DNA from: an uncultured virus (IMG/VR IMGVR_UViG_3300027770_000003)
Lineage: Duplodnaviria; Heunggongvirae; Uroviricota; Caudoviricetes
Length of the DNA: 36,582 nucleotides
IMG/VR virus record: IMGVR_UViG_3300027770_000003
Direction: 5' to 3' (one strand)
Shown: positions 12,387 through 36,197 of the stretch, in pieces
How the letters are laid out: every line of letters starts with the position of its first letter
Position numbering within the stretch: position 1 is the first letter of the stretch
The notes under the pieces: model-generated
What the model was told of the DNA's origin: nothing
What the model saw: the letters and a program-made list of their open reading frames with translations, nothing else
Database searches by the model: none
Translations under genes and position numbers: made by a program

Positions 12387-12455
12387 GGGCGCTCCTTAGA
12401 AGTCTGTAATGCCCTAGTTTACACTACCTTGTGGAGGGTGGGATTGGGGCAAATA

Positions 12456-12623: not shown

Positions 12624-12625
12624 GA

Positions 12626-13021: not shown

Positions 13022-13022
13022 A

Positions 13023-13817: not shown

Positions 13818-13826
13818 AATAACCCC

Positions 13827-14186: not shown

Positions 14187-14194
14187 GATGTCTC

Positions 14195-14719: not shown

Positions 14720-14738
14720 GAAGCATCTCCAATTAGGG

Positions 14739-15587: not shown

Positions 15588-15602
15588 GTATGTATCCTTT
15601 GA

Positions 15603-19084: not shown

Positions 19085-19087
19085 AAA

Positions 19088-19423: not shown

Positions 19424-19424
19424 A

Positions 19425-21160: not shown

Positions 21161-21161
21161 A

Positions 21162-22340: not shown

Positions 22341-22343
22341 CTA

Positions 22344-22712
22344 TTATTCCGAAGGAATAACGATTTCCACCCACTCTTGCTCTTCTTCATCCCAACTGTA
22401 CATACCCTCTGCTGGGCGGGCAACTGGTGCTTCCCATTCAGTGGTTTCTGTATTAAGCGTCCAAGAAGGGAAAGGTTTAGGGGCGATGTATGCATTTAGA
22501 GCGGAATCATATTTGTAACCAATACCTGCATAGCGGGCACGCATGTTGCCGTTGTACGAGGTTTGCTTCCATGTTCCACCCAGCAGATTGCGACAGAATT
22601 CAGCGCCTACAGCCTCTGATTCGCTTCCTGCGCCATCTTTGCAATCATCATTGGATACCACGATGACTCGCAATACAATGTTGTCTTCGCCAATTTCAGC
22701 AAAATGTGCCAT
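22344..22712 (-). CDS. tail fibre assembly/chaperone-like protein (MAHFA family)
   Basis: AAGGAG SD; paralogue of 12626..13021. Confidence 0.7.
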   Translation of the reverse strand: MAHFAEIGEDNIVLRVIVVSNDDCKDGAGSESEAVGAEFCRNLLGGTWKQTSYNGNMRARYAGIGYKYDSALNAYIAPKPFPSWTLNTETTEWEAPVARPAEGMYSWDEEEQEWVEIVIPSE

Positions 22713-22724
22713 GTTTATTTCTCC

Positions 22725-23612
22725 TTAGAAGGTTATGCTGCCTGATGCAGTAAAAGTATATATCCTGTAGCCACCTGTTGTTGTTATGGTTGGGGAGCCT
22801 GTTGTTGATGTTGCAACAAGGTATGCGTCTGGATAACGAACAATTACAATTCCAGAACCGCCACTGCCAGCGTTTACCCCGCAATTACCCGTTATTCCTC
22901 CTGCACCACCGCCACCACCACCAGTGTTCGTGGATCCTGCGCTTGCGCTGCTGCATCCAGAGTTGGCATTACCACCACCTCCGTTGCCCCCAGCGCCACC
23001 AACACCAGTACTATGTCCTCCACCACCACCACCGCCTGCACGAAATACGGCAGAACCAGTTATGGAGGAAGAAACTCCCGATCCACCATCTCCACCTGCA
23101 CTACCATTGCCTCCCGCTCCGCTCGCTCCAGCACCACCACCTCCGCCAGCATTCATACCTGAAGCAGTACCACCGCTATTCCCTTCTCCTGCTGTTCCAC
23201 CCGCACCACCACCACCAGAACGCCCTCCACCTCCGCCAGAACCTCCACCCCCTGCTGCACCATTATCTCCACCACCATTACCACCACCAGTGCTACTAAT
23301 ACCAAACGCCGAAGATGCTGTTCCTGCACCTGCGCCACCACCTCCACCGCCAACCGTGACAGTGTAAGTGGAAGTACCTGTACTAACAGTTCCTGATTTC
23401 AGACCGCCAGCGCCACCACCACCTCCTCCAGCCCATGTGCCACCACCACCTCCTCCAGCAATTATGAGATATTCAAATGTTGGTGGCTTCATTGTGGCCC
23501 AGTTACCCGCTTGTACTTCCCTTTGTACGTCAGAGGTAGACCAAATACCAGATGCAGAAAGGGGGCCAACAGCCTTCTTTGCTCCTAGCATCCCACCATT
23601 ACCTCTAGGCAT
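22725..23612 (-). CDS. glycine-rich putative tail/receptor-binding protein
   Basis: FEYLIIAGGGG ... GGSGIVIVRY ... YRIYTFTASGSI. Confidence 0.8.
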   Translation of the reverse strand: MPRGNGGMLGAKKAVGPLSASGIWSTSDVQREVQAGNWATMKPPTFEYLIIAGGGGGGTWAGGGGGGAGGLKSGTVSTGTSTYTVTVGGGGGGAGAGTASSAFGISSTGGGNGGGDNGAAGGGGSGGGGGRSGGGGAGGTAGEGNSGGTASGMNAGGGGGAGASGAGGNGSAGGDGGSGVSSSITGSAVFRAGGGGGGGHSTGVGGAGGNGGGGNANSGCSSASAGSTNTGGGGGGAGGITGNCGVNAGSGGSGIVIVRYPDAYLVATSTTGSPTITTTGGYRIYTFTASGSITF

Positions 23613-23613
23613 A

Positions 23614-23967
23614 TTAGGAAATTACCTCGTAGGAACATATTGCTTCTAGTTTAAGAGTTGTGCTACCAAGTGCCCTAATAGAGTCGCCTTCTTCAAGGTA
23701 AATGGCTTTGGACAAAATGTCTAGGGTTGCACCCGCAGGAACAACGACTTGGTAAGCAAGACGGTAAGCAGTAGAAGAACGGAATAAATCAAGTGTCACC
23801 GTGAAAGCAGTAGCACCATCTACGTTAGCAACATACAACGAGTTGACTTTGTAGACTTGTCCACTGGCTGCTGAGTTTGTAACAATTGCAACTGCCGAAG
23901 CGGTAAGTGCAAGAACTGCTGTCTTGCCTGTAATCGTTGTTACTCCTACGATGTTTGGTGCTGCCAT
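23614..23967 (-). CDS. tail fibre adaptor-like protein
   Basis: 117 aa beta-rich ORF with GGAGG SD. Confidence 0.7.
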   Translation of the reverse strand: MAAPNIVGVTTITGKTAVLALTASAVAIVTNSAASGQVYKVNSLYVANVDGATAFTVTLDLFRSSTAYRLAYQVVVPAGATLDILSKAIYLEEGDSIRALGSTTLKLEAICSYEVIS

Positions 23968-23970
23968 AAT

Positions 23971-25227
23971 CTATCCTCCGAATACAATTGCCATTGCAAT
24001 TGCCTTTCCTGTTGTTGCGTATGTTGTTGGGGTAGCCCATTTTAGACCAGTTGCTGTGGATGAATCTACAGTAAGAACTTGGTTTGCCGAACCCGCCGTA
24101 AGACCACCAAGTGTGTTATCAGCAGTTCCGACAAGCAGGTCGCCCTTGGCATTAATAGTGTTTACGAGAGCGCTAAAAGGTGATGCGCCAACTTCAATCC
24201 AGTTTGTTCCGTAATAGACATAAGTTCCACCCGTGAGGGAGTTAAACCAGATTTGTCCAGAAACAGGTGATGCTGGGGCGGAATCTTGCACACTGGCAGT
24301 TACACCTGATGCACCGATTTCAATCCACGAAGAATCGTAATAAACAAATGTTTGAGCAGTATCGGTATTAAACCACATACTTCCTTCAAGAGGTGACGCT
24401 GGTGCGGAAGAACTGGATACCATTCGTGCGCCCGTACCAACACCGCCGACTTCAATCCAAGATGAGTCATAGTAAACAAATGTTTTACCATTAGTTGATT
24501 GGAACCATAATTGACCTGCCAAAGGTGATGCTGGGGCTGTATCAGAGATAGTTGCGCCACCAATAATGGTTTCAGCAACCCAAGCACTACCGTTCCACTT
24601 TAAGAATTGCCCAGACGATGGTGATGCTACAGAAACATCACCAATGTCATCCAAGGTGTTAATAGTTGGAATAGTTCCGTTAATCCAGCGAGTTCCATCA
24701 AACTTTAAGAATTGACCATTAACTGGAGTTGTAAGAACAACATCAGAAAGATCAGTTAAGTCTTCTACGAGGTCTGGCACACCACTTGCTTGTAGCCAAC
24801 TGCTGTCGTAATAGATGTACGTTTCTAGTGTTGTTGAGTTAAACCAAAGGTCTCCCTCTGATGGAGAAGCGGGTGCGGTGGCAGAAACTTCTAGACTTGC
24901 TCCTCCACCAAAAGATGCTGAGGCAGATCCAAATTTAGTACCATTAAATACTAAGATGTCATTGAGGGCTGCACCTGTGGTATCAATCTCAATGTTGTCT
25001 ACAAAAAGTGTTGGAGTCTTAAAAGTGTCATCAGTACGAAGAACATCGGCAGCATCACGATAAAGGTTTACATCACCAGTAGCCCCACCTGAACCCCAAA
25101 CAAGGCGACCACCTGCTTCAACTTTTAAACGAGCATAGGTATCGGCATTAACATAGACGGTTACGGCATCAGAACCAGCAGAAACAAGTTGCTTGACAGT
25201 AATAGGTACTGTAAATTTCTGTGCCAC
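23971..25227 (-). CDS. tail fibre protein with internal repeats
   Basis: Four APASP..G..WF....T..YY...W repeats and two L.D..DV...P..GQFLK..G..W repeats. Confidence 0.8.
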   Translation of the reverse strand: MAQKFTVPITVKQLVSAGSDAVTVYVNADTYARLKVEAGGRLVWGSGGATGDVNLYRDAADVLRTDDTFKTPTLFVDNIEIDTTGAALNDILVFNGTKFGSASASFGGGASLEVSATAPASPSEGDLWFNSTTLETYIYYDSSWLQASGVPDLVEDLTDLSDVVLTTPVNGQFLKFDGTRWINGTIPTINTLDDIGDVSVASPSSGQFLKWNGSAWVAETIIGGATISDTAPASPLAGQLWFQSTNGKTFVYYDSSWIEVGGVGTGARMVSSSSAPASPLEGSMWFNTDTAQTFVYYDSSWIEIGASGVTASVQDSAPASPVSGQIWFNSLTGGTYVYYGTNWIEVGASPFSALVNTINAKGDLLVGTADNTLGGLTAGSANQVLTVDSSTATGLKWATPTTYATTGKAIAMAIVFGG

Positions 25228-25275
25228 GACCTCAATCGCTTCCTATGTTGTGACCCCGCAAGGTCTATTTAATTC

Positions 25276-26568
25276 TTAACCTACTACAACAATGGTGTAG
25301 TCGTTAGCGGCAATAGTCCCATAAAGCACCACTGAGAGTGTGTTGCTATTAGAACGGGTTACATCACCAATAACGGTTGCACCAGTTGATACTTCATAAA
25401 TTCCTACGTTTACATCAGTTGTACTAAAGTTGTGAGTAACAGTGGTAGTTGAAACTCCTGCAATGCTGGCGGCACAACCCTGTTTTGCTGTACGAGCAAG
25501 GGAAGGAGTGCTAGTTGTGCGACCTGATGCTTCACCTGAAGCCGATGCCAAGTTAGTGCGAGCAACCGCTTCAGTAGATGCACCAGTACCACCGTCTGTA
25601 ACAGCAACATCTGTACCGTTCCAAACACCTGTCGTAACTGTACCAAGAGTTGTAATGCTTGTTTGACCAACATATGATGCTGAGATGTCAATGCTGTCAG
25701 CGTTTGCTGTAATACGGTTAGTCGTACCAATAACATCAAGAGAGTTACCAGTCTTAGTAAGACCAGTACCTGCAATAACTTGACCAGCACCAGAAAATTG
25801 GGCAAACGCAAGGGCTGTAGTTCCAAGAACGATAGTATCGTTAGTTGTAAGTACCCAACCACTATCTGCGTATGCTGTACCCTCAGCAACAAATGTAAAA
25901 AATCCTGCTGTAACTTCAACAGAAGCATCACAGTCGGTTGCACGGGTTGGTGAGCCTGAAGCATTAACAGTGTAAATACCATTCTCAGAACCTGATACTT
26001 GATCCTTGATCAAGATACGGTCACCAGTTACTAGAGTTACACCATCAACAACAGAACCATTAACAAAACTTGAACTCAAAGTTCCAGCAACTGTGGTGGC
26101 TACTCTTACAGAGGCTTTAACATCAAGACCAGTACGGGCTGCATCTACATATAGTTTTGTTGCAGCATGGCTATCAGCCGTTGGGGCAGCAACACTGATG
26201 TTTCCGTTGCCATCACGTTTTGCCAATTTAGAAGCGGTTGCAGCATCAGTTGCATCTGTGAGCATCTGCCAGAAAGTAGTAGACAACAAACCTGCGTTGC
26301 TGGTGTCAGCAAGGTTAGGGGTAAGACTTACTGAACCATTAGATTCACTGACAGTAAGTGCGGTGGCGTAACTACCAGCAGCCGCAACAGAGTTAAGCAT
26401 TTTGCGCCAAGCGCTACCCGAGTACACCTTGATGGTGTCTTCGGTACTGTTATAGATGAGGCGGCCTTCAAAGTTATTACTTGATGGGTCAGTGCCCAAA
26501 ACCTCAAACTTGGCGTTAACCAGTTGATTCTGGTTGAGGTCAATGTTAGTTAGAAACTTTTGTGCCAT
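25276..26568 (-). CDS. tail fibre protein
   Basis: AATKLYVD, KASVRVATT...VDGVTLVTGDRILIKDQ..SENGIY, a common phage fibre domain. Confidence 0.8.
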   Translation of the reverse strand: MAQKFLTNIDLNQNQLVNAKFEVLGTDPSSNNFEGRLIYNSTEDTIKVYSGSAWRKMLNSVAAAGSYATALTVSESNGSVSLTPNLADTSNAGLLSTTFWQMLTDATDAATASKLAKRDGNGNISVAAPTADSHAATKLYVDAARTGLDVKASVRVATTVAGTLSSSFVNGSVVDGVTLVTGDRILIKDQVSGSENGIYTVNASGSPTRATDCDASVEVTAGFFTFVAEGTAYADSGWVLTTNDTIVLGTTALAFAQFSGAGQVIAGTGLTKTGNSLDVIGTTNRITANADSIDISASYVGQTSITTLGTVTTGVWNGTDVAVTDGGTGASTEAVARTNLASASGEASGRTTSTPSLARTAKQGCAASIAGVSTTTVTHNFSTTDVNVGIYEVSTGATVIGDVTRSNSNTLSVVLYGTIAANDYTIVVVG

Positions 26569-26577
26569 TAAACTTCC

Positions 26578-27033
26578 TTACGTGAGGTAAGCGAAACCAG
26601 AGAACGCTGTTGTAAAGTTTACTACAACTTGGGAGGTACTAGCATAGTTAACTTCCCCAAACACAACAGTTTTTGAACTATCTACAACTGAAACTGATGG
26701 ATACCCACCCAAAGCATGTGTGATCGTCCAAGTTGTGCCAGCAGTACCTTGAGTGTGGATGTGTCTAGCCGCTACAGGGTAAACAAGGTTAAGGATTTGG
26801 TTTGGGGCAATTCCTGTAATGTTTGCACTTGCCGTACCTGTGGTAACTGTCCCAATACTAAGAGTATTAGGAGGACCAGCAACACCTGGGTCACTAACGA
26901 GCAAATCTACAGTAGAGATTTCCCCAGTAACCAAAGACTCCTCAGAAACGGAATCTTGTAAAGTTACTGTGCTTTTTGCCGAAGTGACAATGACACTTGT
27001 GTCATCATCTAGAGTCAGGACATAATCAGCCAT
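26578..27033 (-). CDS. tail-module structural protein
   Basis: LSIGTVTTG...LNL, WTITHALGGYPSVSV; start set at MADYVL. Confidence 0.7.
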   Translation of the reverse strand: MADYVLTLDDDTSVIVTSAKSTVTLQDSVSEESLVTGEISTVDLLVSDPGVAGPPNTLSIGTVTTGTASANITGIAPNQILNLVYPVAARHIHTQGTAGTTWTITHALGGYPSVSVVDSSKTVVFGEVNYASTSQVVVNFTTAFSGFAYLT

Positions 27034-27736
27034 AAGGGTTTGTAGAGACTGAAGCATCTACTGAGATAGTGCCTGCGGCTAGTCGCTCCCAATCTCCTGC
27101 TGAATCTTGGACAAATAAATCAAAGGTGTGGACACCTGCTGGAATACTGTTTTTGTCTGAAATGTGCATTTCAAGAGTTACTCCTGACTTTGGAGCCAAA
27201 TACCCTCTGCGGTTTGCCGCAAGAGCAACAATTGTATTTTCTGCTGGAATAGATGAGTACCAGCGTAGATCCAGTACCGTAGTGCCAGCAGTATTCTTTG
27301 CTTGGAGATAGGCACTAGTAACTGCCTGCAATGTCCCAGTACTATCTTTCCACGTAAAGGTCTTACGGAAATCCTCGTATTGCTTCATTCGGAGTTCCAT
27401 TGATTGAGCCTCATCTCTATCGGTTACATTGTCTAATGCAGTGACAGTGATCTTACCTTTGGAAACTTGGTAGTAGATACTGTCGTATACTGCCAAAACA
27501 TCATACTCTAAGTCACCAATAGGCAATTCAAGTGTCTCTGCTGCTGTTAGACAAAGAAGCACTTCACCAGCACCTGTCACTGATGCAGTAATGTTCTTTT
27601 TAGAATCTACGGATGTTTGGATTTGCGCTTTTACAGCAGTGGGTACCATTAGTCGGTGTCTAGATTTACTTTTAACCCGAATAATTCTTTCCCAGGGTAA
27701 GCCACGAGAGGCTGTGTAGTTTACGGTGCGAGCCAT
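27026..27736 (-). CDS. tail/baseplate-associated protein with two tandem Ig-like (BppU_N-like) domains
   Basis: Two similar halves (LPIGDLEYDVL...GKITV; IPAGVHTFDLF...GTISV); TAAACT-N6-ATG start. Confidence 0.6.
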   Translation of the reverse strand: MARTVNYTASRGLPWERIIRVKSKSRHRLMVPTAVKAQIQTSVDSKKNITASVTGAGEVLLCLTAAETLELPIGDLEYDVLAVYDSIYYQVSKGKITVTALDNVTDRDEAQSMELRMKQYEDFRKTFTWKDSTGTLQAVTSAYLQAKNTAGTTVLDLRWYSSIPAENTIVALAANRRGYLAPKSGVTLEMHISDKNSIPAGVHTFDLFVQDSAGDWERLAAGTISVDASVSTNPYG

Positions 27737-27755: not shown

Positions 27756-28055
27756 CTACTGACCTTTTTTCCTTCTTGGAAAATCATGACCAATTTCAGT
27801 CATCTTCCTACGAACCAGACTTTCCATGTTTTTAACCGCACGGTGGTCTGAGGGCGTACTAGCCATATGAACAACTCCGTCACCTTTAATTCGCAACTGG
27901 ATATGCCCGCTACCAGTTTTATGCCCCATTACAGGAGTGCTGCCTTGACTTACTCTAGAAAGCATTTCACGAAAAGGCTTATCAGTAGTCAGCGACCTAA
28001 CATGGTCTTCAGTAAGGGAATGTTGCTCCCAGTTTAAGTTATCTTCGGTGCTCAC
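27756..28055 (-). CDS. HicA-like (dsRBD-fold) protein
   Basis: TGSGHIQLR...VVHMASTPSDHRAVKN resembles HicA-like phage proteins; TATCAT-N6-GTG start. Confidence 0.55.
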   Translation of the reverse strand: MSTEDNLNWEQHSLTEDHVRSLTTDKPFREMLSRVSQGSTPVMGHKTGSGHIQLRIKGDGVVHMASTPSDHRAVKNMESLVRRKMTEIGHDFPRRKKGQ

Positions 28056-28067
28056 TCACCTATGATA

Positions 28068-28331
28068 CTACGAAGTATATGGCATCCGATGGCGAAGGGT
28101 ATCGTGCATTCGTGCGTAGGCTTGGTCGTACTCTTCACGCTCTTCACTGGTAAAGAGGCGAATCACATGCATGCAGGGATCTCCGCCCTCTTCCATATCC
28201 TGCTCTTCTGCATCAGAGGTAGGAATACCATCGTGCATGTAGCAAGTTGGATACAGACACCACTTACTGTCAATTCCAATAGCCAACCAATCATCAAAAT
28301 CCATTGGTTCTTTTTGTTCTACCTCTGACAT
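28068..28331 (-). CDS. hypothetical protein, possibly metal binding
   Basis: AGGAG SD; CYMH...CMH motifs. Confidence 0.75.
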   Translation of the reverse strand: MSEVEQKEPMDFDDWLAIGIDSKWCLYPTCYMHDGIPTSDAEEQDMEEGGDPCMHVIRLFTSEEREEYDQAYARMHDTLRHRMPYTS

Positions 28332-28339
28332 ATTTTCTC

Positions 28340-28498
28340 CTATTTGTTGACGACTAGTGTTACTTGATATTCCCCATACTCAGGTTGGTCAATGGCTGTA
28401 ACCATTGCAGTTTTAAACCCTTGACTGTGGGCAAGTATAACAGCCTGTTCTTTTGCGTCAAGCATGTTAGGAGTGTGCATCAAATAGGTGATGTTCAT
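28340..28498 (-). CDS. hypothetical protein (52 aa)
   Basis: Not in track. MNITYLMHTP...YQVTLVVNK; TAAGAT-N6-ATG start. Confidence 0.6.
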   Translation of the reverse strand: MNITYLMHTPNMLDAKEQAVILAHSQGFKTAMVTAIDQPEYGEYQVTLVVNK

Positions 28499-28513
28499 AG
28501 GTACATCTTAACA

Positions 28514-28672
28514 TCAGTTGTCATATTTGGAGAACTTCCGTAATTGCTTCTTTTCCTGCCGATCATGGGAGGATTTACGATTGCCCTTACGAACATGGAA
28601 ATCTTTGTAATGTCCCTCTGGATCATCGTCCTCTTGAGGAAATTGATTACTTAGATTATTGTTTTGGTTCAT
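28514..28672 (-). CDS. small protein with NLSNQF N-terminal motif (52 aa)
   Basis: Not in track. MNQNNNLSNQFPQEDDDPEGHYKDFHVRKGNRKSSHDRQEKKQLRKFSKYDN. Confidence 0.65.
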   Translation of the reverse strand: MNQNNNLSNQFPQEDDDPEGHYKDFHVRKGNRKSSHDRQEKKQLRKFSKYDN

Positions 28673-28804
28673 TTTTGTTTAGAAGCAAGACTGACAACCT
28701 TTGTTCTAGTCTTTCGTCTTTTTGCACAAGGATCTGCCGAAAACGATCCTTACCATACTGACCTAATCCATATTGTTTTTTCATAACCTTAAGCATAGTA
28801 CAAG

Positions 28805-30091
28805 TTAGAACAACCTAATTGAGAGGCTTCCATCTTTTCCTCTTACAATTCCTGGCTTACTGTTCTTTGCTCGTTCTTTTCTTTCCTGTTGTCTTACTGC
28901 AACGGGATCGGTACGGGTAAACTTTGTACTCTTAGGCAATGGTGGTGCAGTTGGGGCAAGTTTCTCAAAACCAGGAAGGGTACTTTGTTCTTTTGGTGGC
29001 AAAGGTGCGGTGTAGTGTGCGTGGACAGCCCGAGAATACTCACCAACATCACCAAGACCCAGTTGTTTTAAACCTTCACGTACATGCGGATGGTCTTCCA
29101 TCATTTGACCCAAATAAAGGTGTCTGGCAGTATTTGCATATTTTGCGTTTGATGCTGCTGGTTTACCAGTTTTCTTAGCAAGATGTTCTTGCTTTAATGC
29201 TGTCAGGTGCTTGTCTGCAAGAGCATCCATGTCTGGAAGAGATTCAATACCAGCCCTGCCATGCATAGCAACATGTAACCTAGTTGCTGCGTATAGCGCT
29301 TGTTCGTGTTTATCTCGCCATCCTTTAAAATTTACACCGTACCCTTGAGCAGTGCTACCTTGTTCTGTAAAATCAAGATGTCGGTCAGCATTTTCAACAG
29401 GGTTCAAATATCTTTCGGTTACTTCGTCACCGCTATTATCTTCCTTTATTGTTCCAAATCTATCTTTGTACCCATCTGCAACACCCTCCATTACAGGAGA
29501 AGTAACAGTTGCACCCTTAGTGCTTGATTTAGCATTTTCTATTTCTCGGTACCCCAATAACTTACCTTTATACATTTGTGTTCTAGCACCTTGAGCAGTT
29601 AAGTTGTCTTGATCTTCTTTGTGCCCCCATTCATGTGTAAACGTAGATGCTATATCGTGGGCAGAAACATTATTCCCATACTGGTCCTGTCTATTTATCA
29701 CCAGTTTTTGTTCCCCAGGAGAAAAATAACCAGCCTTAACAGTGCTACGCATTCCTTCAATTTTTATTGGTTTATTTTTTAGCATAGGTGTTGAGAGATT
29801 GGTAGACGCTACTGCATTTGCTAAAACTATGTTGCCCCAATTCGCACTTTTGTTGGGATTGGATGAGACATCATCTGTCACTTCCCCTATATCTCTTACT
29901 CGTTGATCCATTGAGTACATTGGGTCATTACGAGATTGTGTTGCAGTGTCTGGGTGAAAGAGTAAACCTTGTGGGTGTTCCGAGCGGGTGTTCCGTGAAA
30001 CTTGTCCATATTGGTGATCATCTTCATATGGGGTTGTATTGTCATCACCTGCAAAGTAGGTGTTGTTAAACTGTTCTCCAAGGTTAGGCAT
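28805..30091 (-). CDS. zincin-like metallopeptidase domain protein
   Basis: AGYF...LVIN...TFTHEWGH (HExxH) and downstream MEGVAD third ligand; starts MPNLGEQF; TATAAT-N6-ATG start. Confidence 0.7.
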   Translation of the reverse strand: MPNLGEQFNNTYFAGDDNTTPYEDDHQYGQVSRNTRSEHPQGLLFHPDTATQSRNDPMYSMDQRVRDIGEVTDDVSSNPNKSANWGNIVLANAVASTNLSTPMLKNKPIKIEGMRSTVKAGYFSPGEQKLVINRQDQYGNNVSAHDIASTFTHEWGHKEDQDNLTAQGARTQMYKGKLLGYREIENAKSSTKGATVTSPVMEGVADGYKDRFGTIKEDNSGDEVTERYLNPVENADRHLDFTEQGSTAQGYGVNFKGWRDKHEQALYAATRLHVAMHGRAGIESLPDMDALADKHLTALKQEHLAKKTGKPAASNAKYANTARHLYLGQMMEDHPHVREGLKQLGLGDVGEYSRAVHAHYTAPLPPKEQSTLPGFEKLAPTAPPLPKSTKFTRTDPVAVRQQERKERAKNSKPGIVRGKDGSLSIRLF

Positions 30092-30108
30092 GGTCTAATT
30101 ATAAACTA

Positions 30109-30282
30109 TTATCCACCATTGGAATAAAAGCCTCTACCTACAAGATTGACAGCAGGTGAGAAGTAAACTGGGCGCAAATCTTCACCGCAGTCTGGGCATG
30201 ACAAATTGCTTGCATCTTCGTAGATACTTCGGAACTCTTCGTGTCGGTGGTCGTTTGAACACTTGTAGGCATAAGTAGGCAT
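30109..30282 (-). CDS. FmdB-family zinc ribbon protein (57 aa)
   Basis: Not in track. MPTYAYKCSNDH...CPDCG...GRGFYSNGG. Confidence 0.85.
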   Translation of the reverse strand: MPTYAYKCSNDHRHEEFRSIYEDASNLSCPDCGEDLRPVYFSPAVNLVGRGFYSNGG

Positions 30283-30284
30283 AG

Positions 30285-30860
30285 TTACAATCCTAACTCT
30301 TGTTTTGCCTCTGCGTGGTACCCGCCCTCATCTCGTTCTTCTGCCCCTGGATCAGTATTGAATTGTTGAGTACTAATATGCTTAACATGCCCTGATGTTA
30401 CTAACTGGTGTGGAATTACATAAGAAGTAGAACCTGGGTCTTCCCAACGGTTTCTATACTTGTTAATGCTAGTTTTACTTTTTTCCTTTACCTGCATGTT
30501 TTCTTGATAATCTTCGGGCGGTTTAGGTACGTTGTTGCTGTATCCCTCTTCGTGTGGATCTTCAAAGGTCATCATTGACGGACGCTTTTTAATTTGGTAA
30601 GTATGCAGATACGTTGTAAAATCAGGACCGTCATTATCTTCCTGTATTCCTTCTTCAGTCATTTGGCTGTAATACTGTTTTTCATGAGCATGTTGCATCA
30701 TTAATGATCGGTCTAAAGCGGCATTTATTGTCCCAGCGTGAAACCCACTCTTTTGATTACCTTTTCTGAAAGGCTCAGCATGACTGGCAAGCACATGAGG
30801 AGGTGTTGGGTCATTACTAGTGTGATACACCGTAATGTTAGTTGGATCTTTTCTAGCCAT
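30285..30860 (-). CDS. putative ADP-ribosyltransferase-like protein (His-type)
   Basis: VYHTS...FHAGT..AA.DR...Y.NRWEDPGSTSYVI; paralogue of 31514..31972. Confidence 0.5.
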   Translation of the reverse strand: MARKDPTNITVYHTSNDPTPPHVLASHAEPFRKGNQKSGFHAGTINAALDRSLMMQHAHEKQYYSQMTEEGIQEDNDGPDFTTYLHTYQIKKRPSMMTFEDPHEEGYSNNVPKPPEDYQENMQVKEKSKTSINKYRNRWEDPGSTSYVIPHQLVTSGHVKHISTQQFNTDPGAEERDEGGYHAEAKQELGL

Positions 30861-30863
30861 TAC

Positions 30864-31286
30864 TTAATCCTCATATTTAATAGTGTGGCCTTGGTTTCTG
30901 TGGAAATTTTCCCAACGAGAAGACGTATCTGCATACATTACGGAACCATCCGTACCACTAAGGCCAGCAGGAGTACCAGACCTATCTAACATAAAGTCCA
31001 TAGCGGCATTGTGTGCTTCTCTGGGTGAAGAGAATCCTGAATTGTTAGTTTTAGATTGGCGCATATTCCTTCTATCAATAACTTCTCTCCTAGCAGGGTT
31101 ATGCCATTCAAAAGTATACTTACCAGTTTTCTCTGTTGTTAGAGAATCGTGCACACGGTCACCTTCTCCACGCTTGTACATCTCTACCATCGTGTTCTCA
31201 GACATACCAGGAGCACCGTATGTCGCAGTCTCTTCATAGATGTGTGGTCGCCACTCATTGAATTGATACTGGTTAAGTGGTTTCAT
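30864..31286 (-). CDS. hypothetical protein with LNQYQF N-terminal motif
   Basis: Start moved to MKPLNQYQF, supported by TATACT-N6-ATG. Confidence 0.7.
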   Translation of the reverse strand: MKPLNQYQFNEWRPHIYEETATYGAPGMSENTMVEMYKRGEGDRVHDSLTTEKTGKYTFEWHNPARREVIDRRNMRQSKTNNSGFSSPREAHNAAMDFMLDRSGTPAGLSGTDGSVMYADTSSRWENFHRNQGHTIKYED

Positions 31287-31292
31287 AAAGCA

Positions 31293-31334
31293 AGTATACA
31301 TTGCCCTTCAGACAGCACTTTTTTCATTTATACT
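31293..31334. promoter_or_regulatory. back-to-back divergent leaderless promoters
   Basis: TATACT-N6-ATG on minus (31293-31298) and TATACT-N6-GTG on plus (31329-31334). Confidence 0.7.
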
Positions 31335-31340
31335 TAACAA

Positions 31341-31514
31341 GTGGACCCTAGACACGAAAGCCCCCAATTCCGTTGGAGAACCAATGAGAACCCTAAAGGG
31401 CATACTTATGTAGATGGCGAGGCTGTCAACATAGACGACCTACATCAAAGTGCGGGTTTTACTAAGCGTGACCCACAATACCTTTTAGAGAAGCGTAAAG
31501 CAAGGAAGAAGTAA
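31341..31514 (+). CDS. small basic-tailed protein with SPQF N-terminal motif (57 aa)
   Basis: Not in track. MDPRHESPQFRWRTNENPKGH...LLEKRKARKK; TAATG overlap with the next gene. Confidence 0.7.
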   Translation: MDPRHESPQFRWRTNENPKGHTYVDGEAVNIDDLHQSAGFTKRDPQYLLEKRKARKK

Positions 31515-31972
31515 TGGGCAAAATCGTTTATCACGGTACACACAGTGATGAAGCACCTCATGCGTATGGTGAACCCTTCCATGCTGGAACTCTTACAGCA
31601 GCATATGATCGTTTAGCCGATGAGCAGACAAACGGTATGTTAGAAGAACCAACTGCAAGAATTCATAAATATGAAATAACAGACAGCGCTCCGACTTCTC
31701 GTGGCACTTGGGCAGACCCTTTAGATGATTATCGTGACGGTCCGACAGTTGTCCCTGAATATAGCCAGAAACGTATCTACCCCTATAAAAACACCCGTGA
31801 GGATAGAGGATCAACTTCCTATGTAATTCCTTCTAAGTTTGTTGGCACACATGTAAAACACCTTGGAATACAGTTTCAGCACTTTACCAGTGGTGGGGAC
31901 GATGGGCATGAAATTGCTGTAAACGCTATGTCTACTATGGTTGGCGGCAAGAAAGCGTTTGAGGATAAGTAA
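31514..31972 (+). CDS. putative ADP-ribosyltransferase-like protein (His-type)
   Basis: VYHGT...FHAGTLTAAYDR...YKNTREDRGSTSYVI. Confidence 0.55.
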   Translation: MGKIVYHGTHSDEAPHAYGEPFHAGTLTAAYDRLADEQTNGMLEEPTARIHKYEITDSAPTSRGTWADPLDDYRDGPTVVPEYSQKRIYPYKNTREDRGSTSYVIPSKFVGTHVKHLGIQFQHFTSGGDDGHEIAVNAMSTMVGGKKAFEDK

Positions 31973-32352
31973 TGGCTGCTCATGATAATCTAAGTAACCA
32001 ATTTAAGGTAGTTCATCAAAAATTAGGTGAGGGTGTGGCTGCTGGTAGGGGTTGGCATTCTCTTACACTCACTGACCCAAAAAAAGGTACAGACCTTGCT
32101 CGTGTGTCTTTTGAGCACTACAACGACCCAGATTTTGAACCATCGTCAAGAATAGATATAGATTATCTAAAAAGCCATGTTGAGGGTCAAGGACATGCCC
32201 AGCGACTTATGGAACACATGTACAACCGATACCCAAAGTCGCATATTGACTGGGGTTTGACAATCAACCCAACATCTACACACATTGCTTCAAAGTTTGA
32301 AGACAAGTACTATGACAGAACTTCGTATCAACCAGAAGAGGACATGGATTAA
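31972..32352 (+). CDS. GNAT-like acetyltransferase with NLSNQF tag
   Basis: IDIDYLKSHVEGQGHAQRLMEHM resembles acetyl-CoA binding motif A. Confidence 0.6.
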   Translation: MAAHDNLSNQFKVVHQKLGEGVAAGRGWHSLTLTDPKKGTDLARVSFEHYNDPDFEPSSRIDIDYLKSHVEGQGHAQRLMEHMYNRYPKSHIDWGLTINPTSTHIASKFEDKYYDRTSYQPEEDMD

Positions 32353-32717
32353 TGGCTGCACACGAGAACTTAAGCGGGCAATTGTCCATGTTCATCCCTG
32401 CAAAGGAACTCATGAACTACACAGCAGGGGATGTTGAGAATTTTAGTGGTGATTATATGCCTTTGTCACAGTCCCCTAATGTGCGTAGGCGTAAATTACA
32501 AGAATCTAAAGAGTATGCAGGTTGGGATGCTAAACCAAAGCAAAAAGAATCCCTTTATGACGATATCAAAAAGAATGGTGTATCTACCGCTGTACACCTA
32601 AGATTACCTAGAAAAGATGGACTTAGCCCAAACACTCAAATTTGGGATGGTAATCATCGTGTAGTCGCAGCCAATGACATTGACCCTAATATGGAAGTAC
32701 CAGTAAGGTATTCTTGA
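32352..32717 (+). CDS. ParB/Sulfiredoxin-like domain protein with NLSGQL tag
   Basis: LYDDIKKNGV..AV.L...IWDGNHRVVAA...VPV. Confidence 0.75.
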   Translation: MAAHENLSGQLSMFIPAKELMNYTAGDVENFSGDYMPLSQSPNVRRRKLQESKEYAGWDAKPKQKESLYDDIKKNGVSTAVHLRLPRKDGLSPNTQIWDGNHRVVAANDIDPNMEVPVRYS

Positions 32718-32720
32718 GTA

Positions 32721-33017
32721 ATGGGTAAGCGACTTACTGCACAACAAATCATGGATAACTACCAACCTGGGGATATGTTGAGGAATGACACTCCCGAAAT
32801 TTTTTGGGCAGGGAAACTAGAGTCTGCTAAAACTACTAAAGTGTCCAAAGACAAGACCTTGTATCAAGACCTAGAAGAGCGTGGTCAACAAAAACCAATC
32901 ACTATTGGCTATAAGGGGTTTGGTTCGCCCTCTGTTTTAGATGGTCACCATCGTTTAGCAGCACTACACCATATGAACCCTGACCAGTTCGTTAAATACC
33001 GAAGGGTAACTCCATAA
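32721..33017 (+). CDS. ParB/Sulfiredoxin-like domain protein
   Basis: LYQDLEERGQQKPITI...VLDGHHRLAAL. Confidence 0.75.
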   Translation: MGKRLTAQQIMDNYQPGDMLRNDTPEIFWAGKLESAKTTKVSKDKTLYQDLEERGQQKPITIGYKGFGSPSVLDGHHRLAALHHMNPDQFVKYRRVTP

Positions 33018-33391
33018 TGCCAGCACATGAAAAAGTATCCGCAGAACAATTTGCAGAACAATTTGCAGACCGAGCAAATCGCCCAGAAATGATTGGTTCT
33101 TCTCAGCCATACCCAGATACAGGTGAACCTACCCCACATTACTACCGTTGGATGCACAAAGACGAATATGCAACCGCCGAGCGTTTGGGTCATTTTAGAA
33201 GCACTATAAATGTTAGTCCTGCATATGGACCATCTGACTCGTATAAATACGATAATGCTGTACATGTACGGTTCCCACACATGCAGGGAGTGTTTAAGTC
33301 TAAAGGAAGCAGTTATCGTGGTCCAGGTAGAGCAGCGTGGGCAGAAGCATCCATCCCATTCCACCTAGGTGAAAAGATTGACGAAACCTAA
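33017..33391 (+). CDS. hypothetical protein, weak ADP-ribosyltransferase-like pattern
   Basis: Starts MPAHEKVSAEQF; YYRWM..DEY....G. Confidence 0.5.
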   Translation: MPAHEKVSAEQFAEQFADRANRPEMIGSSQPYPDTGEPTPHYYRWMHKDEYATAERLGHFRSTINVSPAYGPSDSYKYDNAVHVRFPHMQGVFKSKGSSYRGPGRAAWAEASIPFHLGEKIDET

Positions 33392-33804
33392 TGGCTGCTC
33401 ACGAGAACCTCAGTAGGCAGTTTGTAACCCTCTACAGAGGTGTGACTGAACATCCAGATGATGTTAACTACAGCCGTTTAGGGGAGCATTGGACTACGGA
33501 TCTGGGAGTGGCAAAGGACTTTGCTACCCCGTTGTCATTTAAGGGCGCATACGACCCTAGTAAGGGGCATGGGACAGTATTTCAAACAACTGTGCATCCT
33601 TCTGAGATCATTCAACCAAATACTGAGGAATGGAAACAAAGAGGCGGTGGAGACTATGAAAGTGGTGTGGGCATCTTTGACCATAGCCATCCTGAGCAAG
33701 AACGTACTTTACGGTGGCAATCAAGGGTAAACCTGGATAAAGTCATGCATTTCCATAAGGGGAATCAAATAAACGAGTTTGAAAACAGAGAAGGAACCGT
33801 TTAA
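33391..33804 (+). CDS. putative ADP-ribosyltransferase (R-S-E-like) with NLSRQF tag
   Basis: VTLYRGV, HWTTDLGVAKDFA, EQE. Confidence 0.65.
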   Translation: MAAHENLSRQFVTLYRGVTEHPDDVNYSRLGEHWTTDLGVAKDFATPLSFKGAYDPSKGHGTVFQTTVHPSEIIQPNTEEWKQRGGGDYESGVGIFDHSHPEQERTLRWQSRVNLDKVMHFHKGNQINEFENREGTV

Positions 33805-33888
33805 GCCTATATAGGGCGGATTTGTGTGTGTGCAATTTTTTGGAATGGGTCTATCTGGTCATTTTGCATTCCTTGGGTTGTAGGCGCT

Positions 33889-34066
33889 CCCCCCAAGCCA
33901 ACCCTCAAGTCTCACTTAAGGGTGGGGGGTCTAACCCTCTACCATAGGTTTATGGTTAGACTTTGCCCACTGACAACCCTCAACCCTCTATGTAGACTCT
34001 ATAGTATGCAGGGTATGTTGAGACTTTGGGCGATTCCCTTGCCCAGCATGGAGCGAACCCTCAACC
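33889..34066. repeat. five AACCCTC heptamers plus two imperfect inverted repeats
   Basis: AACCCTC at 33900, 33933, 33975, 33982 and 34056; C6...ACCCTCAAGT/ACTTAAGGGT...G6; TCTAACC/GGTTAGA. Confidence 0.7.
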
Positions 34067-34632
34067 ACGCATTGTAAGGCTCTGAGAGCGTCTATATCGC
34101 CCATTCCTCATTCGCATATTGTTCTCTTATAGACCCACCTTAGAACGCCTGAGAAGGGGCAATCAGGGCATCGTAGAGGGTAAAGCAGCACTCATCCCCA
34201 GCAAACCCAATGCCAGCCTACAAATGGGTCTACTGGAATGGCATGAATAGACATCGGGGAGCGTGGGGAGCATTTGCACCACCACTCGCTCTCCGATCAT
34301 TGGTATTCACTGTCACATCGCAGTGAGTCATCAGTGGTACAGCGTTGCCACGAGTGTTCACATCTCGGTGTCATTCACTCATCATCACTCCATGATCTCC
34401 GATGACATTCACTCCATGTATCTCTATGCAATGCAGTGATGAAGTGATTCGCTGGGCGAAATAAATAACGTACTCATCCATTCACTTCGGAATGGTTTTG
34501 ATCGAGCCTGTCCGTTCTCAATCGCAGGTCATGTTCATACCAAGTCATTCATTCTGATCGCTCTCCGATGATCCAGTGATGCGTTATTCACGATGATCGG
34601 ATGACATTACAAACATTTGAGTGTGGGCGAAT

Positions 34633-34671
34633 AAAAAAAGATCCTCACGACATCTCGCCGTGAGGATCTTT
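34633..34671 (-). terminator. intrinsic terminator after the helicase
   Basis: AAAGATCCTCACG/CGTGAGGATCTTT stem ending in a T7 run on the minus strand. Confidence 0.85.
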
Positions 34672-34691
34672 GCTTCGCAGTGCTGGATGAT

Positions 34692-36197
34692 TTAGTAACT
34701 GTTCAAGATCGCCTGCACCATTGACTCATTGCTCTCACTGATCAAGTCATCAGCAGTTCCTTCAAGAACGCCGAGCATGATCTTGTGCTTCGCTTCAATG
34801 AGGGCGAGCATCTTCTCATCCATCGTTGTCATGCCATCAATGCCTGCGATCATGATGTGCGAAATTGTTTCACGCACCTGTCCAAAGCGATTGATGCGAT
34901 CTTCAACTTGAAGCAGTGATGCAGAATCCCAAGGCAATGAACACGACACATGATGTCGTGCTGAGTGCAATGTGATACCGACACCTGCACTGGCAACATT
35001 GCCAATCAACACTCGTGCCTCACCACTCTGAAATGCATCCACGCTCGCCTGCTTCGCCTTGTCATTCATTCCACCAACGATCTTGACAGTGTGAACAGAC
35101 TCAGAGAAATGATTGAAGTAAGCATCGGCTTCATCAGTGAAGTTGGTGCTCATGAATACCTGCTCACCATCGTCCAGCAAGTCCTGCACATATGCAGTCA
35201 CTGCTTTCACAGATCCCATTGCACAGATGTGGCGAAGTTCAGTGATGTATACAAGTGCTTCAGCGAGCATCGCCTTCTGAGCACGAGCCTCGCCTTTGGT
35301 ATTGCGAATCCACTGAATGAGATTCTCTTCGCAAGCGAGGTAGTTCGCTTCACGCTTCGCATCCATCTCAATCAACACTTGTGTACGACCACTGTTCGGA
35401 AGCGTGAGCACCTCATCACGAGTTCTGCGAATCATGAATGATCCAGCAAGCAGTTCATGCAGTTCTTTCAAGTGTGATGCACCACGAGTGCCGTAGGGAT
35501 CAATCTTCGGTGCGTAACGATTGATGAAGCCATTGATGCCACCAGTGAATGTTGCTCCACGATCCAGCATTTGGATCACTGGCAACAATTCCATCGGACG
35601 AGCAATCAACGGTGTACCACTCATGGCAACACGCACACCTGATGACGGAACAGTCTGTGCGATTTCAATCGTGGCTTGCGAACGCTTTGCTCGCTTGCCA
35701 CCTTTCATGTGATGACATTCATCAATGATGATTCCAGCAATATTGTTCTTCAACAATTCTTTCCATCCATGCACTGATGCTTCGCCAATGATCAACACAT
35801 CTGCTTCAGGCAATGCAGTGATCTTCAACTTGGTTGGGTTCGTGCCGAGAATGGTTGTAGTGCTCACTGATGGTGCAAACTTTGCGAACTCACGCTTCCA
35901 TGTCAATCGCATTGTGGCTGGCACGATCACGAGCACTGGAGTCATGCCAGCGATCACTGATGCTGTTGCGATTGCAATCGCAGTGGCTGTCTTACCGACA
36001 CCTTGCTCATCGGCAATCAACACTGTGCGTTCCTTCAATGCGAACTCTGCTCCAGTGATTTGATGTGCCAACAATGGTTGTGCCATTTGTGGCATTGACA
36101 ACGTAGTTTTTTCAATCGGTGCGTTGCTCATAAATTGCGTGAGGTTGGCGAGTGCTGACTGTTTCATATCTGTTCCCTTCGGTTGGTTGAATTGCAT
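34692..36197 (-). CDS. SNF2-family (SMARCAL1/HARP-like) helicase/ATPase
   Basis: LIADEQGVGKT, IIDECH, SGTP, GVGITL, QVEDRINRFGQ; TACCAT-N6-ATG at 36197, with an alternative start at MKQS. Confidence 0.92.
   Translation of the reverse strand: MQFNQPKGTDMKQSALANLTQFMSNAPIEKTTLSMPQMAQPLLAHQITGAEFALKERTVLIADEQGVGKTATAIAIATASVIAGMTPVLVIVPATMRLTWKREFAKFAPSVSTTTILGTNPTKLKITALPEADVLIIGEASVHGWKELLKNNIAGIIIDECHHMKGGKRAKRSQATIEIAQTVPSSGVRVAMSGTPLIARPMELLPVIQMLDRGATFTGGINGFINRYAPKIDPYGTRGASHLKELHELLAGSFMIRRTRDEVLTLPNSGRTQVLIEMDAKREANYLACEENLIQWIRNTKGEARAQKAMLAEALVYITELRHICAMGSVKAVTAYVQDLLDDGEQVFMSTNFTDEADAYFNHFSESVHTVKIVGGMNDKAKQASVDAFQSGEARVLIGNVASAGVGITLHSARHHVSCSLPWDSASLLQVEDRINRFGQVRETISHIMIAGIDGMTTMDEKMLALIEAKHKIMLGVLEGTADDLISESNESMVQAILNSY

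What the first reader, a model, noticed from the sequence alone, without database searches (positions are those of the whole stretch)
27756..33804. Unrelated effector-like proteins share a short N-terminal tag (MAAHxNLSxQF): candidate capsid-targeting system
Seen: N-termini are MAAHDNLSNQF (GNAT, 31972), MAAHENLSGQL (ParB-like, 32352), MAAHENLSRQF (ART-like, 33391), MPAHEKVSAEQF (33017), MNQNNNLSNQF (28672), MPNLGEQF (zincin, 30091), MKPLNQYQF (31286), MDPRHESPQF (31341), MSTEDNLNWEQH (HicA-like, 28055) and weakly MGKRLTAQQI (32721). Similarity stops after about 11 residues and the bodies have different folds. Codons differ synonymously between copies (CAT/CAC, AAT/AAC, CTA/TTA/CTC, AGT/AGC, CAA/CAG), pointing to selection on the peptide rather than on a DNA site. 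Known: T4 internal proteins use a 10-residue N-terminal capsid targeting sequence. Inference: this tag loads interchangeable cargo into the head (or marks it for a prohead protease or chaperone) for injection with the DNA.
Basis: partly seen in the sequence, partly recalled or inferred. Interest (0 to 1): 0.9.

Follow-up and report, generated by a model that had tools for sequence, protein, structure and literature searches.

The report
Shared N-terminal tag on phage enzymes
A family of common lake phages starts many unrelated small enzymes with the same eight-to-eleven-residue peptide, which looks like an address label (perhaps for loading them into the virus particle), but what reads the label is still unknown.

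Summary
Four window proteins start with M-[AP]-A-H-[DE]-x-[LV]-S-x(1-2)-Q-[FL] (31972, 32352, 33017, 33391). Four to five more carry weaker forms.

In related ~97-kb lake phage contigs and metagenomes I collected 63 different complete tagged proteins. Their bodies fall into 21 unrelated groups, including an ADP-ribosyltransferase fold, GNATs and weak Arr-like and ParB-like matches.

- Between groups the first 8 residues are 71% identical and the bodies 16%.
- Third codon positions vary freely, so selection acts on the peptide.
- The tag sits at ORF starts, and 0 of 13 hits in cellular genomes look like it.
- Two structure models leave the first residues (1-8, 1-5) at low confidence, ahead of the first strand.
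- One enzyme family occurs both with and without the tag.

What the tag does is not shown. Virion loading, as with the phage T4 capsid targeting sequence, is my best guess (0.4). In its favour are the injected-effector type of cargo and the fast gene turnover. Against it, the cassette lies far from the head genes, uses leaderless host-type promoters, and no classical prohead protease was found. A shared partner or degron inside the infected cell is a serious rival.

This scan has reported comparable tags on other viral DNA.

The parts
33391..33804 (+). 137-aa tagged protein (MAAHENLSRQF) with an R-S-E ADP-ribosyltransferase-like body
   Evidence: In alignment A1 R16, G17 and E102-x-E104 are invariant. 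AF2 gives mean pLDDT 78.9, with residues 1-8 below 50 and the first strand at 12-18. Foldseek's best matches are cholera-toxin-A1-type and Rhs Tre ADP-ribosyltransferases (TM 0.41-0.48, best E 8e-4).
33017..33391 (+). 124-aa tagged protein (MPAHEKVSAEQF), body of unknown family
   Evidence: No Pfam or PHROG hit. It forms its own body cluster.
32721..33017 (+). 98-aa untagged ParB-like protein (MGKRLTAQQI; DGHHR motif)
   Evidence: PHROG 723 ParB-like, E 6e-4. Conserved in G3 and L005 without a tag.
32352..32717 (+). 121-aa tagged protein (MAAHENLSGQL) with a ParB/Srx-like body (DGNHR)
   Evidence: Alignment A3. AF2 gives pLDDT 69.9, with residues 1-5 below 50 and the first strand at 11-16. Relatives give weak ParB_N hits, E 0.017-0.035.
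31972..32352 (+). 126-aa tagged protein (MAAHDNLSNQF), body unassigned
   Evidence: The only hit is a sub-threshold Pfam YunG-like match, E 0.0018. It forms its own body cluster.
31514..31972 (+). 152-aa untagged member of a family (YHGT...HAGT...GSTSYVIP) that carries the tag in relatives
   Evidence: BLASTP to tagged MAAHEHLNKILFHAS proteins gives E 1.6e-10. Residue 1 aligns to their residue 7. It is a paralogue of 30285-30860.
31341..31514 (+). 57-aa ORF with a GTG start and weak tag (VDPRHESPQF), first gene of the + strand unit
   Evidence: TATACT lies 6 nt upstream of the start. 83.5% DNA identity to G3.
30864..31286 (-). 140-aa protein with a weak tag (MKPLNQYQF), first gene of the - strand unit
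   Evidence: TATACT lies 6 nt upstream of the ATG at 31286. The G3 orthologue starts MKPLNEYQF.
30285..30860 (-). 191-aa untagged paralogue of 31514-31972
   Evidence: BLASTP to the tagged relatives gives E 6e-19.
30109..30282 (-). 57-aa zinc-ribbon protein, conserved in every cassette seen
   Evidence: Pfam Zn_ribbon_8, E 3e-10, above cut-off. Present in G2 and G3.
28805..30091 (-). 428-aa protein with an HEWGH (HExxH) motif and a weak tag (MPNLGEQF)
   Evidence: TATAAT lies 6 nt upstream of the ATG. No family hit. G3 orthologue 69% identical.
28514..28672 (-). 52-aa protein with half of the tag (MNQNNNLSNQF)
   Evidence: The G3 orthologue starts MNQNNNLSKQF.
27756..28055 (-). 99-aa protein with a GTG start and weak tag (MSTEDNLNWEQH)
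   Evidence: PHROG 2089, function unknown. The G3 orthologue starts MAGENNLNWEQH.
34692..36197 (-). SNF2-family helicase that flanks the cassette and served as anchor for fetching relatives
   Evidence: Pfam SNF2-rel_dom, E 1.8e-26. A weak PHROG DarB-like hit. Anchor search.

Best explanation
The peptide M-[AP]-A-[HS]-[ED]-x-[LIV]-[NS], followed after 1-2 residues by [QL]-[FLV], is a portable address tag. It sits in front of the first strand of many unrelated small enzymes.

Shown: these ~97-kb lake myophages keep a fast-changing cassette of such enzymes between the replication genes and the tail-fibre genes.

Inferred: the tag docks each cargo onto one common partner. Most likely this happens during procapsid assembly, so that the set of enzymes travels in the virion and enters the next cell with the DNA. 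This would resemble phage T4 internal proteins, but possibly without proteolytic removal of the tag.
For: 1. Portability.
- 63 different complete tagged proteins fall into 21 body clusters (BLASTP 1e-3 on residues 14 to end).
- Between clusters the first 8 residues are 71% identical and the bodies 16% (210 pairs). Within clusters the figures are 79% and 44% (150 pairs).

2. Selection on the peptide. In 37 distinct DNA contexts, codon positions 1 and 2 of codons 2-5 carry 1.3-2.0 bits and position 3 carries 0.5-0.6 bits. His uses only CAT/CAC and Glu only GAA/GAG.

3. Position.
- Of 63 pattern hits in metagenome loci, 48 are at ORF starts. 42 of the 45 hits that have the Q-F part are at ORF starts.
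- 0 of 13 hits in 185,579 species genomes look like a tag.

4. Free add-on.
- AF2 leaves residues 1-8 and 1-5 below pLDDT 50. The first strand begins at residue 11-12.
- The YH[GT]/GSTSYVIP family occurs without the tag in the window and with it in relatives (E 6e-19).
- Decayed tags lie upstream of intact genes (L039 3451, L056 1334).

5. Cargo kind.
- ADP-ribosyltransferase fold.
- GNAT (Pfam E 6.6e-8).
- Arr-like and ParB-like weak hits, an HExxH protein, and an SNF2 helicase next door.
- ART, ParB, zincin peptidase and SNF2 are hub domains of proteins delivered with phage DNA (PMC5512222, passages read).

6. Precedent. T4 internal proteins share only a 10-residue N-terminal capsid targeting sequence and lie in a variable hotspot (PMC9026906, PMC3012670, PMC12373910; passages read).

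7. Cargo is small (median 124 aa, range 53-209), hydrophilic and mostly without cysteine (32 of 37).

8. The minus-strand half of the cassette runs straight into the tail-fibre genes with a 20-bp gap.
Against: - No tagged gene lies in the head module of the two complete relatives. All strict tags sit in the cassette, about 30 kb from portal, scaffold and capsid genes.
- No HK97-type prohead protease (PF04586) in 0 of 5 near-complete relatives, with a working control. The T4-type family (PF03420) was also not found, but its control was silent. PHROGs named none among the 61 of 140 G3 ORFs scanned. So a T4-style 'load, then clip' cycle lacks its enzyme.
- 9 of 37 tags start 6 nt after TATAAT/TATACT, a leaderless host-type promoter layout. 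Structural genes use AGGAG ribosome sites. This fits early host-takeover genes at least as well as late virion genes.
- Tagged proteins are near neutral (median pI 6.2), not basic like DNA-associated internal proteins.
- The nearest isolates (Streptomyces phage BRock, capsid 60% identical) have no tag, so no virion proteome can be consulted.
Confidence: 0.4

Rival explanations
1. The tag is read inside the infected cell, not in the particle. It docks the enzymes onto one common factor. That factor could be a host hub, a small conserved cassette protein such as the 57-aa zinc ribbon, or a protease that clears these potentially toxic enzymes on schedule. In the last case the tag is a phage-specific degron, perhaps read by the phage's own HslV/proteasome-like peptidase.
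For: - Leaderless host-type promoter layout of many tagged genes, unlike the Shine-Dalgarno-led structural genes. This suggests early expression.
- The tag models as an exposed, low-confidence N-terminus, as docking peptides and degrons usually are.
- An HslV-like peptidase starting MTTIVGV, the usual start of HslV-type peptidases, lies next to the portal gene in G3. A matching frame is found in 4 of 5 near-complete relatives.
- A zinc-ribbon gene is conserved in all three cassettes compared.
Against: - No partner was identified.
- No unfoldase gene was seen among the 61 G3 ORFs scanned.
- The tag has no look-alike at the start of cellular proteins (0 of 13), so it does not copy a host signal in this form.
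- The cargo set matches delivered effectors (PMC5512222).
Confidence: 0.3
2. The peptide is a 'starter module' for genes without a ribosome-binding site. On this view it is a good beginning for leaderless or stop-start coupled (TAATG) translation and for protein stability. It would be copied from gene to gene when new cargo is recombined into the cassette.
For: - Most of the 37 tag contexts are either TAATG-coupled or leaderless.
- The cassette is rearranged between relatives.
- Decayed tags sit in front of genes that restart at their own ATG.
Against: - Untagged genes in the same operons use the same TAATG coupling (31514, 32721, 30860), so the tag is not needed for it.
- Conservation runs over 8-11 residues and is strictly at the amino-acid level. 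That is longer and more specific than known early-elongation effects.
- Paralogous tags share no long identical DNA, so they are poor recombination sites.
Confidence: 0.12
3. There is no common function. The second half ([LIV]-[NS]-x-x-Q-[FL]) would simply be a helix or strand start motif of each fold, and the first half a relic of gene duplication.
For: - h-[STN]-x-x-[EQ]-h is a general helix-capping pattern (recalled). It also occurs inside the 681-aa protein 8108-10153.
- The last tag residue enters the first strand in both models.
Against: - Bodies of 21 clusters show no detectable relation, yet tags stay 71% identical.
- The tag is better kept than the bodies within families, 79% against 44%.
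- MAAHE occurs only at ORF starts in these phages.
Confidence: 0.08
4. After removal of Met1 the free A-A-H end forms a copper/nickel-binding (ATCUN-type) site. The tag would then be a metal-binding N-terminus.
For: His at position 4 in 33 of 37 contexts, often with a second His at position 6. The ATCUN rule (free N-terminus, His third) is recalled.
Against: - 4 of 37 contexts have Ser in place of His (MAAS[DE]H...), and the weak forms lack His altogether.
- It does not explain the conserved [LIV]-[NS]...Q-[FL] half.
- No reason is known why 21 unrelated enzymes should need it.
Confidence: 0.05

Closest known systems
Capsid targeting sequence (CTS) of phage T4 internal proteins IPI-III (PMC9026906, PMC3012670, PMC12373910; passages read)
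   Same: A short (about 10-residue) N-terminal peptide is the only thing shared by small, otherwise unrelated proteins. These are encoded in a fast-changing hotspot. Different relatives carry different cargo behind the same leader.
   Different: - No sequence likeness to the T4 leader.
- A different phage lineage: N4-gp56-type capsid and a contractile tail. An actinobacterial host is inferred from a WhiB gene and from Streptomyces phage relatives.
- No T4- or HK97-type prohead protease found, and no fixed cleavage motif after the tag.
- Cargo are enzymes of near-neutral charge.
- The genes have leaderless host-type promoters.
- Packaging is not shown.
Polyvalent proteins and other early-phase effectors delivered with phage or plasmid DNA (Iyer et al. 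2017, PMC5512222; passages read)
   Same: The same domain repertoire: ADP-ribosyltransferase, ParB-like, zincin-type HExxH peptidase and an SNF2 helicase next door, in a conflict-type, fast-evolving setting.
   Different: There, many domains are fused in one giant polypeptide and released by the peptidase. Here each domain is a separate 53-212-aa protein with its own copy of a short leader, an 'unbundled' layout.
N-terminal loading signals of payloads of contractile injection systems (PVC type), and cargo-loading peptides of encapsulins (both recalled, not read here)
   Same: A short terminal peptide makes unrelated enzymes cargo of one protein container. Encapsulin shells share the HK97 fold with phage capsids.
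   Different: PVC signals are about 50 residues long and need a dedicated ATPase. Encapsulin peptides are usually C-terminal. Neither resembles this sequence, and no binding was tested successfully here.
Comparable N-terminal tags reported earlier by this scan on other viral DNA (e1-3084959, e1-6098713 and the magrovirus notes e1-6021604 and others)
   Same: One short peptide at the start of many unrelated, fast-changing viral proteins, read as a capsid address.
   Different: Different peptides, viruses and gene neighbourhoods: those lie beside head or packaging genes, this one does not. All are untested notes.

Membership tests
T4-type capsid targeting sequence system | About 10 N-terminal residues shared by otherwise unrelated small proteins of a variable locus | tested here: met
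   63 proteins in 21 body clusters. Tag identity 71% against body identity 16% between clusters. Cassette content differs between the window, G2 and G3.
T4-type capsid targeting sequence system | Sequence relation to the T4 leader | tested here: not met
   Compared by eye with the T4 leader, which I recalled and then found as a text string in PMC8442874 (search listing). No shared positions beyond a Q-x-F-like pair.
T4-type capsid targeting sequence system | Leader ends at a prohead-protease site, and the phage encodes that protease | tested here: inconclusive
   PF04586: 0 of 5 near-complete relatives, control valid. PF03420: 0 of 5, but the control was silent. PHROGs named no prohead protease among 61 of 140 G3 ORFs. 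No conserved residue follows the tag. An HslV-like peptidase lies beside the portal gene; its role is unknown.
T4-type capsid targeting sequence system | Tagged proteins are present in virions and injected | not testable with these tools
   No isolate of this clade is available. The nearest isolate, BRock, lacks the tag.
Polyvalent / DNA-co-delivered effector proteins | Domain repertoire of ART, ParB, zincin peptidase and SNF2 | tested here: met
   ART fold. GNAT, Arr-like and ParB-like hits, the last two weak. HExxH by motif only. SNF2 by Pfam. Repertoire as listed in PMC5512222.
Polyvalent / DNA-co-delivered effector proteins | Several unrelated domains in one polypeptide | tested here: not met
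   All tagged proteins are 53-212 aa. The two that were modelled each show one domain.
Encapsulin-type cargo-loading peptide | Peptide binds the inner face of an HK97-fold shell protein | not testable with these tools

The most novel reading that the evidence does not exclude
The tag is not a packaging label but a phage-private degron or timer. A set of toxic early enzymes (ADP-ribosyltransferases, acetyltransferases, ParB-like proteins, a peptidase) would be made at once from leaderless host-type promoters. Later they would be cleared through their common exposed N-terminus by the phage's own HslV/proteasome-like peptidase, which is encoded with the head genes. That would be a virus-encoded targeted-proteolysis circuit with its own tag.
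Probability: 0.1. Interest if true: 0.85.

Novelty: new variant of a known kind. Interest (0 to 1): 0.65.

Why it matters
The capsid gene of this phage group has thousands of close relatives in lake metagenomes: 4350 proteins at E <= 1e-10, and the best 120 are 85-93% identical. The tag therefore marks the variable gene set of a very common freshwater virus. Its likely hosts, streamlined lake Actinobacteria, are hard to culture.

- A short, sequence-defined label gives a simple way to list that gene set in any metagenome.
- If it is a loading signal, it shows that 'address tag plus swappable cargo' evolved outside T4-like phages and without the T4 protease. It would also offer a second natural handle for putting foreign proteins into phage particles.
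- If it is read inside the cell, it points to an unknown hub or a timed-degradation step in infection.

Tried and rejected
- **Complex prediction.** Capsid protein (A2) with tagged protein 33391 (A1) scored 0.26 and 0.00 against a mark of 0.32. The verdict was 'no answer', so it counts neither for nor against binding.
- **Annotated phage collection.** The cassette gave no blastn match and a tail-fibre protein gave no tblastn match.
- **Own assembly.** It is not held. The nearest record, G001, is a 10-kb fragment without the region.
- **Zincin-anchored locus search.** It found only 3 close relatives.
- **Regex-free clustering of N-termini.**
  - The first script failed.
  - The rerun gave as many pairs above threshold as expected (G3 11 against 11.2).
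  - In the window the threshold was inflated by tail-fibre paralogues, so the test is underpowered.
  - Even so, the largest G3 component (5 genes) was the tag group.
- **Generic sigma-70 scan.** It found 14 sites against 17.5 expected, so it is not informative.
- **Rfam and tRNA scans** of the window found nothing.
- **BRock.** No shared N-termini among 35 left-end genes and 0 pattern matches.
- **Scan notes.** Look-ups by sequence and by place returned nothing.
- **Lake metatranscriptome contigs** (4 runs).
  - They lie on parts of 26.8-32.2 kb and on tail-fibre genes.
  - Contigs cannot rank genes, show strand or timing, or exclude DNA carry-over. Uncovered parts mean nothing.
- **Scaffold-mimicry idea.**
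  - The scaffold's C-terminal NMTMDQYVKMRDRLL fits a strict tag-like pattern. That pattern has only 5 hits in the 30,432 aa of G3.
  - I wrote the pattern after seeing the scaffold, so it stays a lead only.
- **Considered and set aside.**
  - Secretion or lipoprotein signal: the peptide is too short and polar.
  - DNA recombination site: only synonymous positions vary.

Full report
**1. What is in the window**

The stretch 27756-33804 is a dense cassette of small genes. They are transcribed outward from a short gap at 31287-31340.

Four plus-strand genes begin with nearly the same peptide:
- MAAHDNLSNQF (31972)
- MAAHENLSGQL (32352)
- MPAHEKVSAEQF (33017)
- MAAHENLSRQF (33391)

Weaker forms start five other genes: 28672-, 30091-, 31286-, 31341+ and 28055-. 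MGKRLTAQQI (32721) does not belong.

Genes are joined by TAATG stop-start overlaps. Family searches on 19 window proteins were almost blank. The hits were:
- a zinc ribbon (30109-30282);
- the flanking SNF2 helicase;
- a weak ParB-like PHROG hit for 32721;
- a sub-threshold YunG-like hit for 31972.

**2. More than chance, and at the N-terminus**

- LSxQF-like motifs in the first ten start positions: 5 in the window against 0.58 expected from their internal frequency (p = 3e-4). In relative G3: 9 against 2.59 (p = 0.0014). In G2: 5 against 1.94 (p = 0.047).
- In loci fetched through the helicase, 14 M[AP][AP]H hits were found. 13 lie within 13 codons of an upstream stop. The fourteenth has an orthologue that does.
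- The pattern for M-[AP]-A-H-[DE] occurs 9 times in five related records. The reversed control pattern occurs 0 times. All nine lie in the cassette.

**3. Relatives**

The window's own assembly is not held.

A strict back-translated pattern found 5 loci in viral contigs. A looser one found 22 loci on 20 contigs:
- two look like chance (L042, L043);
- one is a 67% G+C relative (L040);
- the other 17 contigs carry canonical tags.

The same pattern found 50 metagenome loci with 63 hits. 48 are at ORF starts, and 42 of those also carry the Q-F part. 15 are internal.

In one genome for each of 185,579 prokaryote species it found 13 hits, none tag-like. So the peptide belongs to this phage group and is not a copied host signal in this form.

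Two complete relatives were read whole: G2 (97,131 bp) and G3 (96,978 bp, collinear with the window). G3 has these features:
- a contractile tail;
- portal, coiled-coil scaffold and capsid genes in a row;
- a WhiB gene;
- almost all genes on one strand, except the small cluster that holds most tags.

The capsid protein is of the N4-gp56 family and extremely common: 4350 hits at E <= 1e-10, with the best 120 at 85-93% identity. The nearest isolates are Streptomyces phages such as BRock (60% identity). BRock lacks the tag. An actinobacterial host is therefore an inference.

**4. Anatomy of the tag**

Pooling all loci gives 63 different complete tagged proteins. By body they form 21 clusters.

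| Comparison | Residues 1-8 | Body | Pairs |
|---|---|---|---|
| Between clusters | 71% identical | 16% | 210 |
| Within clusters | 79% identical | 44% | 150 |

In 37 distinct DNA contexts, third codon positions are nearly free (0.5-0.6 bits). First and second positions are fixed (1.3-2.0 bits). The variation stays within synonymous codons. This rules out a DNA site.

AlphaFold2 results:
- For 33391 (8-row alignment, mean pLDDT 78.9), residues 1-8 fall below pLDDT 50 and the fold starts at residue 12.
- For 32352 (7 rows, pLDDT 69.9, only one of five models good), residues 1-5 fall below 50 and the first strand starts at 11.

The untagged window proteins 31514-31972 and 30285-30860 are homologous to tagged proteins of relatives (E 1.6e-10 and 6e-19). 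Residue 1 of 31514 aligns to residue 7 of the tagged form. The added part is thus about eight residues, and the final hydrophobic residue belongs to the first strand.

Decayed tags lie in front of intact genes in L039 and L056.

**5. Cargo**

- 33391 models as an R-S-E ADP-ribosyltransferase. Foldseek matches cholera-toxin-A1-type and Rhs Tre toxins (TM 0.41-0.48, best E 8e-4). An invariant Arg-Gly and E-x-E are seen in alignment A1.
- Tagged proteins of relatives include GNAT acetyltransferases (E 6.6e-8, above cut-off).
- Others begin ...LFHG[ST] with weak Arr-type hits, or give weak ParB_N hits.
- Most clusters have no family.
- Tagged proteins are small (53-209 aa, median 124), hydrophilic, of median pI 6.2, and 32 of 37 have no cysteine.
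- ART, ParB, zincin peptidase and SNF2 are the hub domains of proteins that phages and plasmids deliver with their DNA (PMC5512222, passages read).

**6. Regulation**

TATA[AC]T followed after exactly 6 nt by the start codon marks:
- 31341+, 31286- and 30091- in the window;
- five cassette genes in G3, out of nine such sites genome-wide;
- 9 of the 37 tag contexts.

Structural genes instead carry AGGAG sites. A strong terminator closes the helicase operon at 34637-34671. The cassette is thus a set of small leaderless units, distinct from the late structural operons. The minus-strand half nevertheless abuts the tail-fibre genes.

**7. Reading**

The data show a portable, exposed, protein-level-selected N-terminal label on swappable enzymes. 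They do not show who reads it.

The closest precedent is the T4 capsid targeting sequence. There, ten residues are the only thing shared by internal proteins of a variable hotspot (PMC9026906, PMC3012670, PMC12373910; passages read). I rank virion loading first (0.4).

Points against that reading:
- the distance from the head genes;
- the promoter and translation style of the cassette;
- the neutral charge of the cargo;
- the lack of a classical prohead protease.

An HslV-like peptidase beside the portal gene and a conserved zinc-ribbon gene in the cassette are candidates for a reader in the rival 'intracellular address or degron' reading (0.3).

**8. Standing**

This is a new variant of a known kind of system. 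The scan has reported comparable tags on other viral DNA, so the type is not unique. This one is well populated, belongs to a very abundant phage lineage, and departs from the T4 model in several tested respects.

Noticed in passing
window 33805-34691: About 890 bp without a convincing gene lie between the end of the plus-strand cluster and the helicase. A 16-bp-stem terminator sits at 34637-34671 on the minus strand. Part of the stretch (33812-34041) is 72% identical to G3. Rfam finds nothing.
   Followed up: partly
window 12000-27700 (e.g. 19425-19739, 19739-21160): An array of about ten paralogous tail-fibre-like genes (PHROG 2295). Several start with the same peptide, MAIDFPNSPS.ND.F. This shared N-terminus belongs to true paralogues and is probably their attachment end.
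   Followed up: partly
L028 5609-6244 (G3), beside the portal gene: A 211-aa HslV/proteasome-like peptidase starts MTTIVGV, the usual start of HslV-type peptidases. A matching frame is found in 4 of 5 near-complete relatives. Its role in a phage is unknown.
   Followed up: partly
window 31329-31341, 31286-31298, 30091-30103, 10153, 4584: TATAAT or TATACT lies exactly 6 nt before the start codon. This suggests leaderless transcripts, which are concentrated in the cassette. Structural genes have AGGAG sites.
   Followed up: partly
L028 2735-3523 (G3 scaffold), last 25 residues: The scaffold's C-terminus, NMTMDQYVKMRDRLL (kept in G2), fits a strict tag-like pattern that is rare in the proteome. 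It is a possible mimicry lead, but I found it after the fact.
   Followed up: partly
L040 3863-4024 (also L105, L116): A 67% G+C relative with the same portal family encodes a 53-aa highly charged mini-protein starting MAAHEHLSRGQF. It lies about 2.2 kb upstream of the portal gene. Near-identical genes occur on two high-G+C (about 67%) metagenome contigs.
   Followed up: partly
L039 3451 and L056 1334: Tag remnants of 14 and 8 codons end in a stop. The first lies just upstream of, and in frame with, an intact MGKIVYHGT gene. This shows tag loss by nonsense mutation.
   Followed up: no
window 30285-30860 and 31514-31972: Two paralogues of an unnamed family share the motifs YH[GT], HAGT and GSTSYVIP. 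The motifs recall NAD-using transferases (recalled), but no family or fold was assigned.
   Followed up: partly
window 8108-10153: A 681-aa protein with a hydrophobic N-terminus has its own TATAAT-N5-GTG start. It carries two internal tag-like motifs (LSTEQF, ITTDQV). It is conserved in G2 and G3.
   Followed up: no
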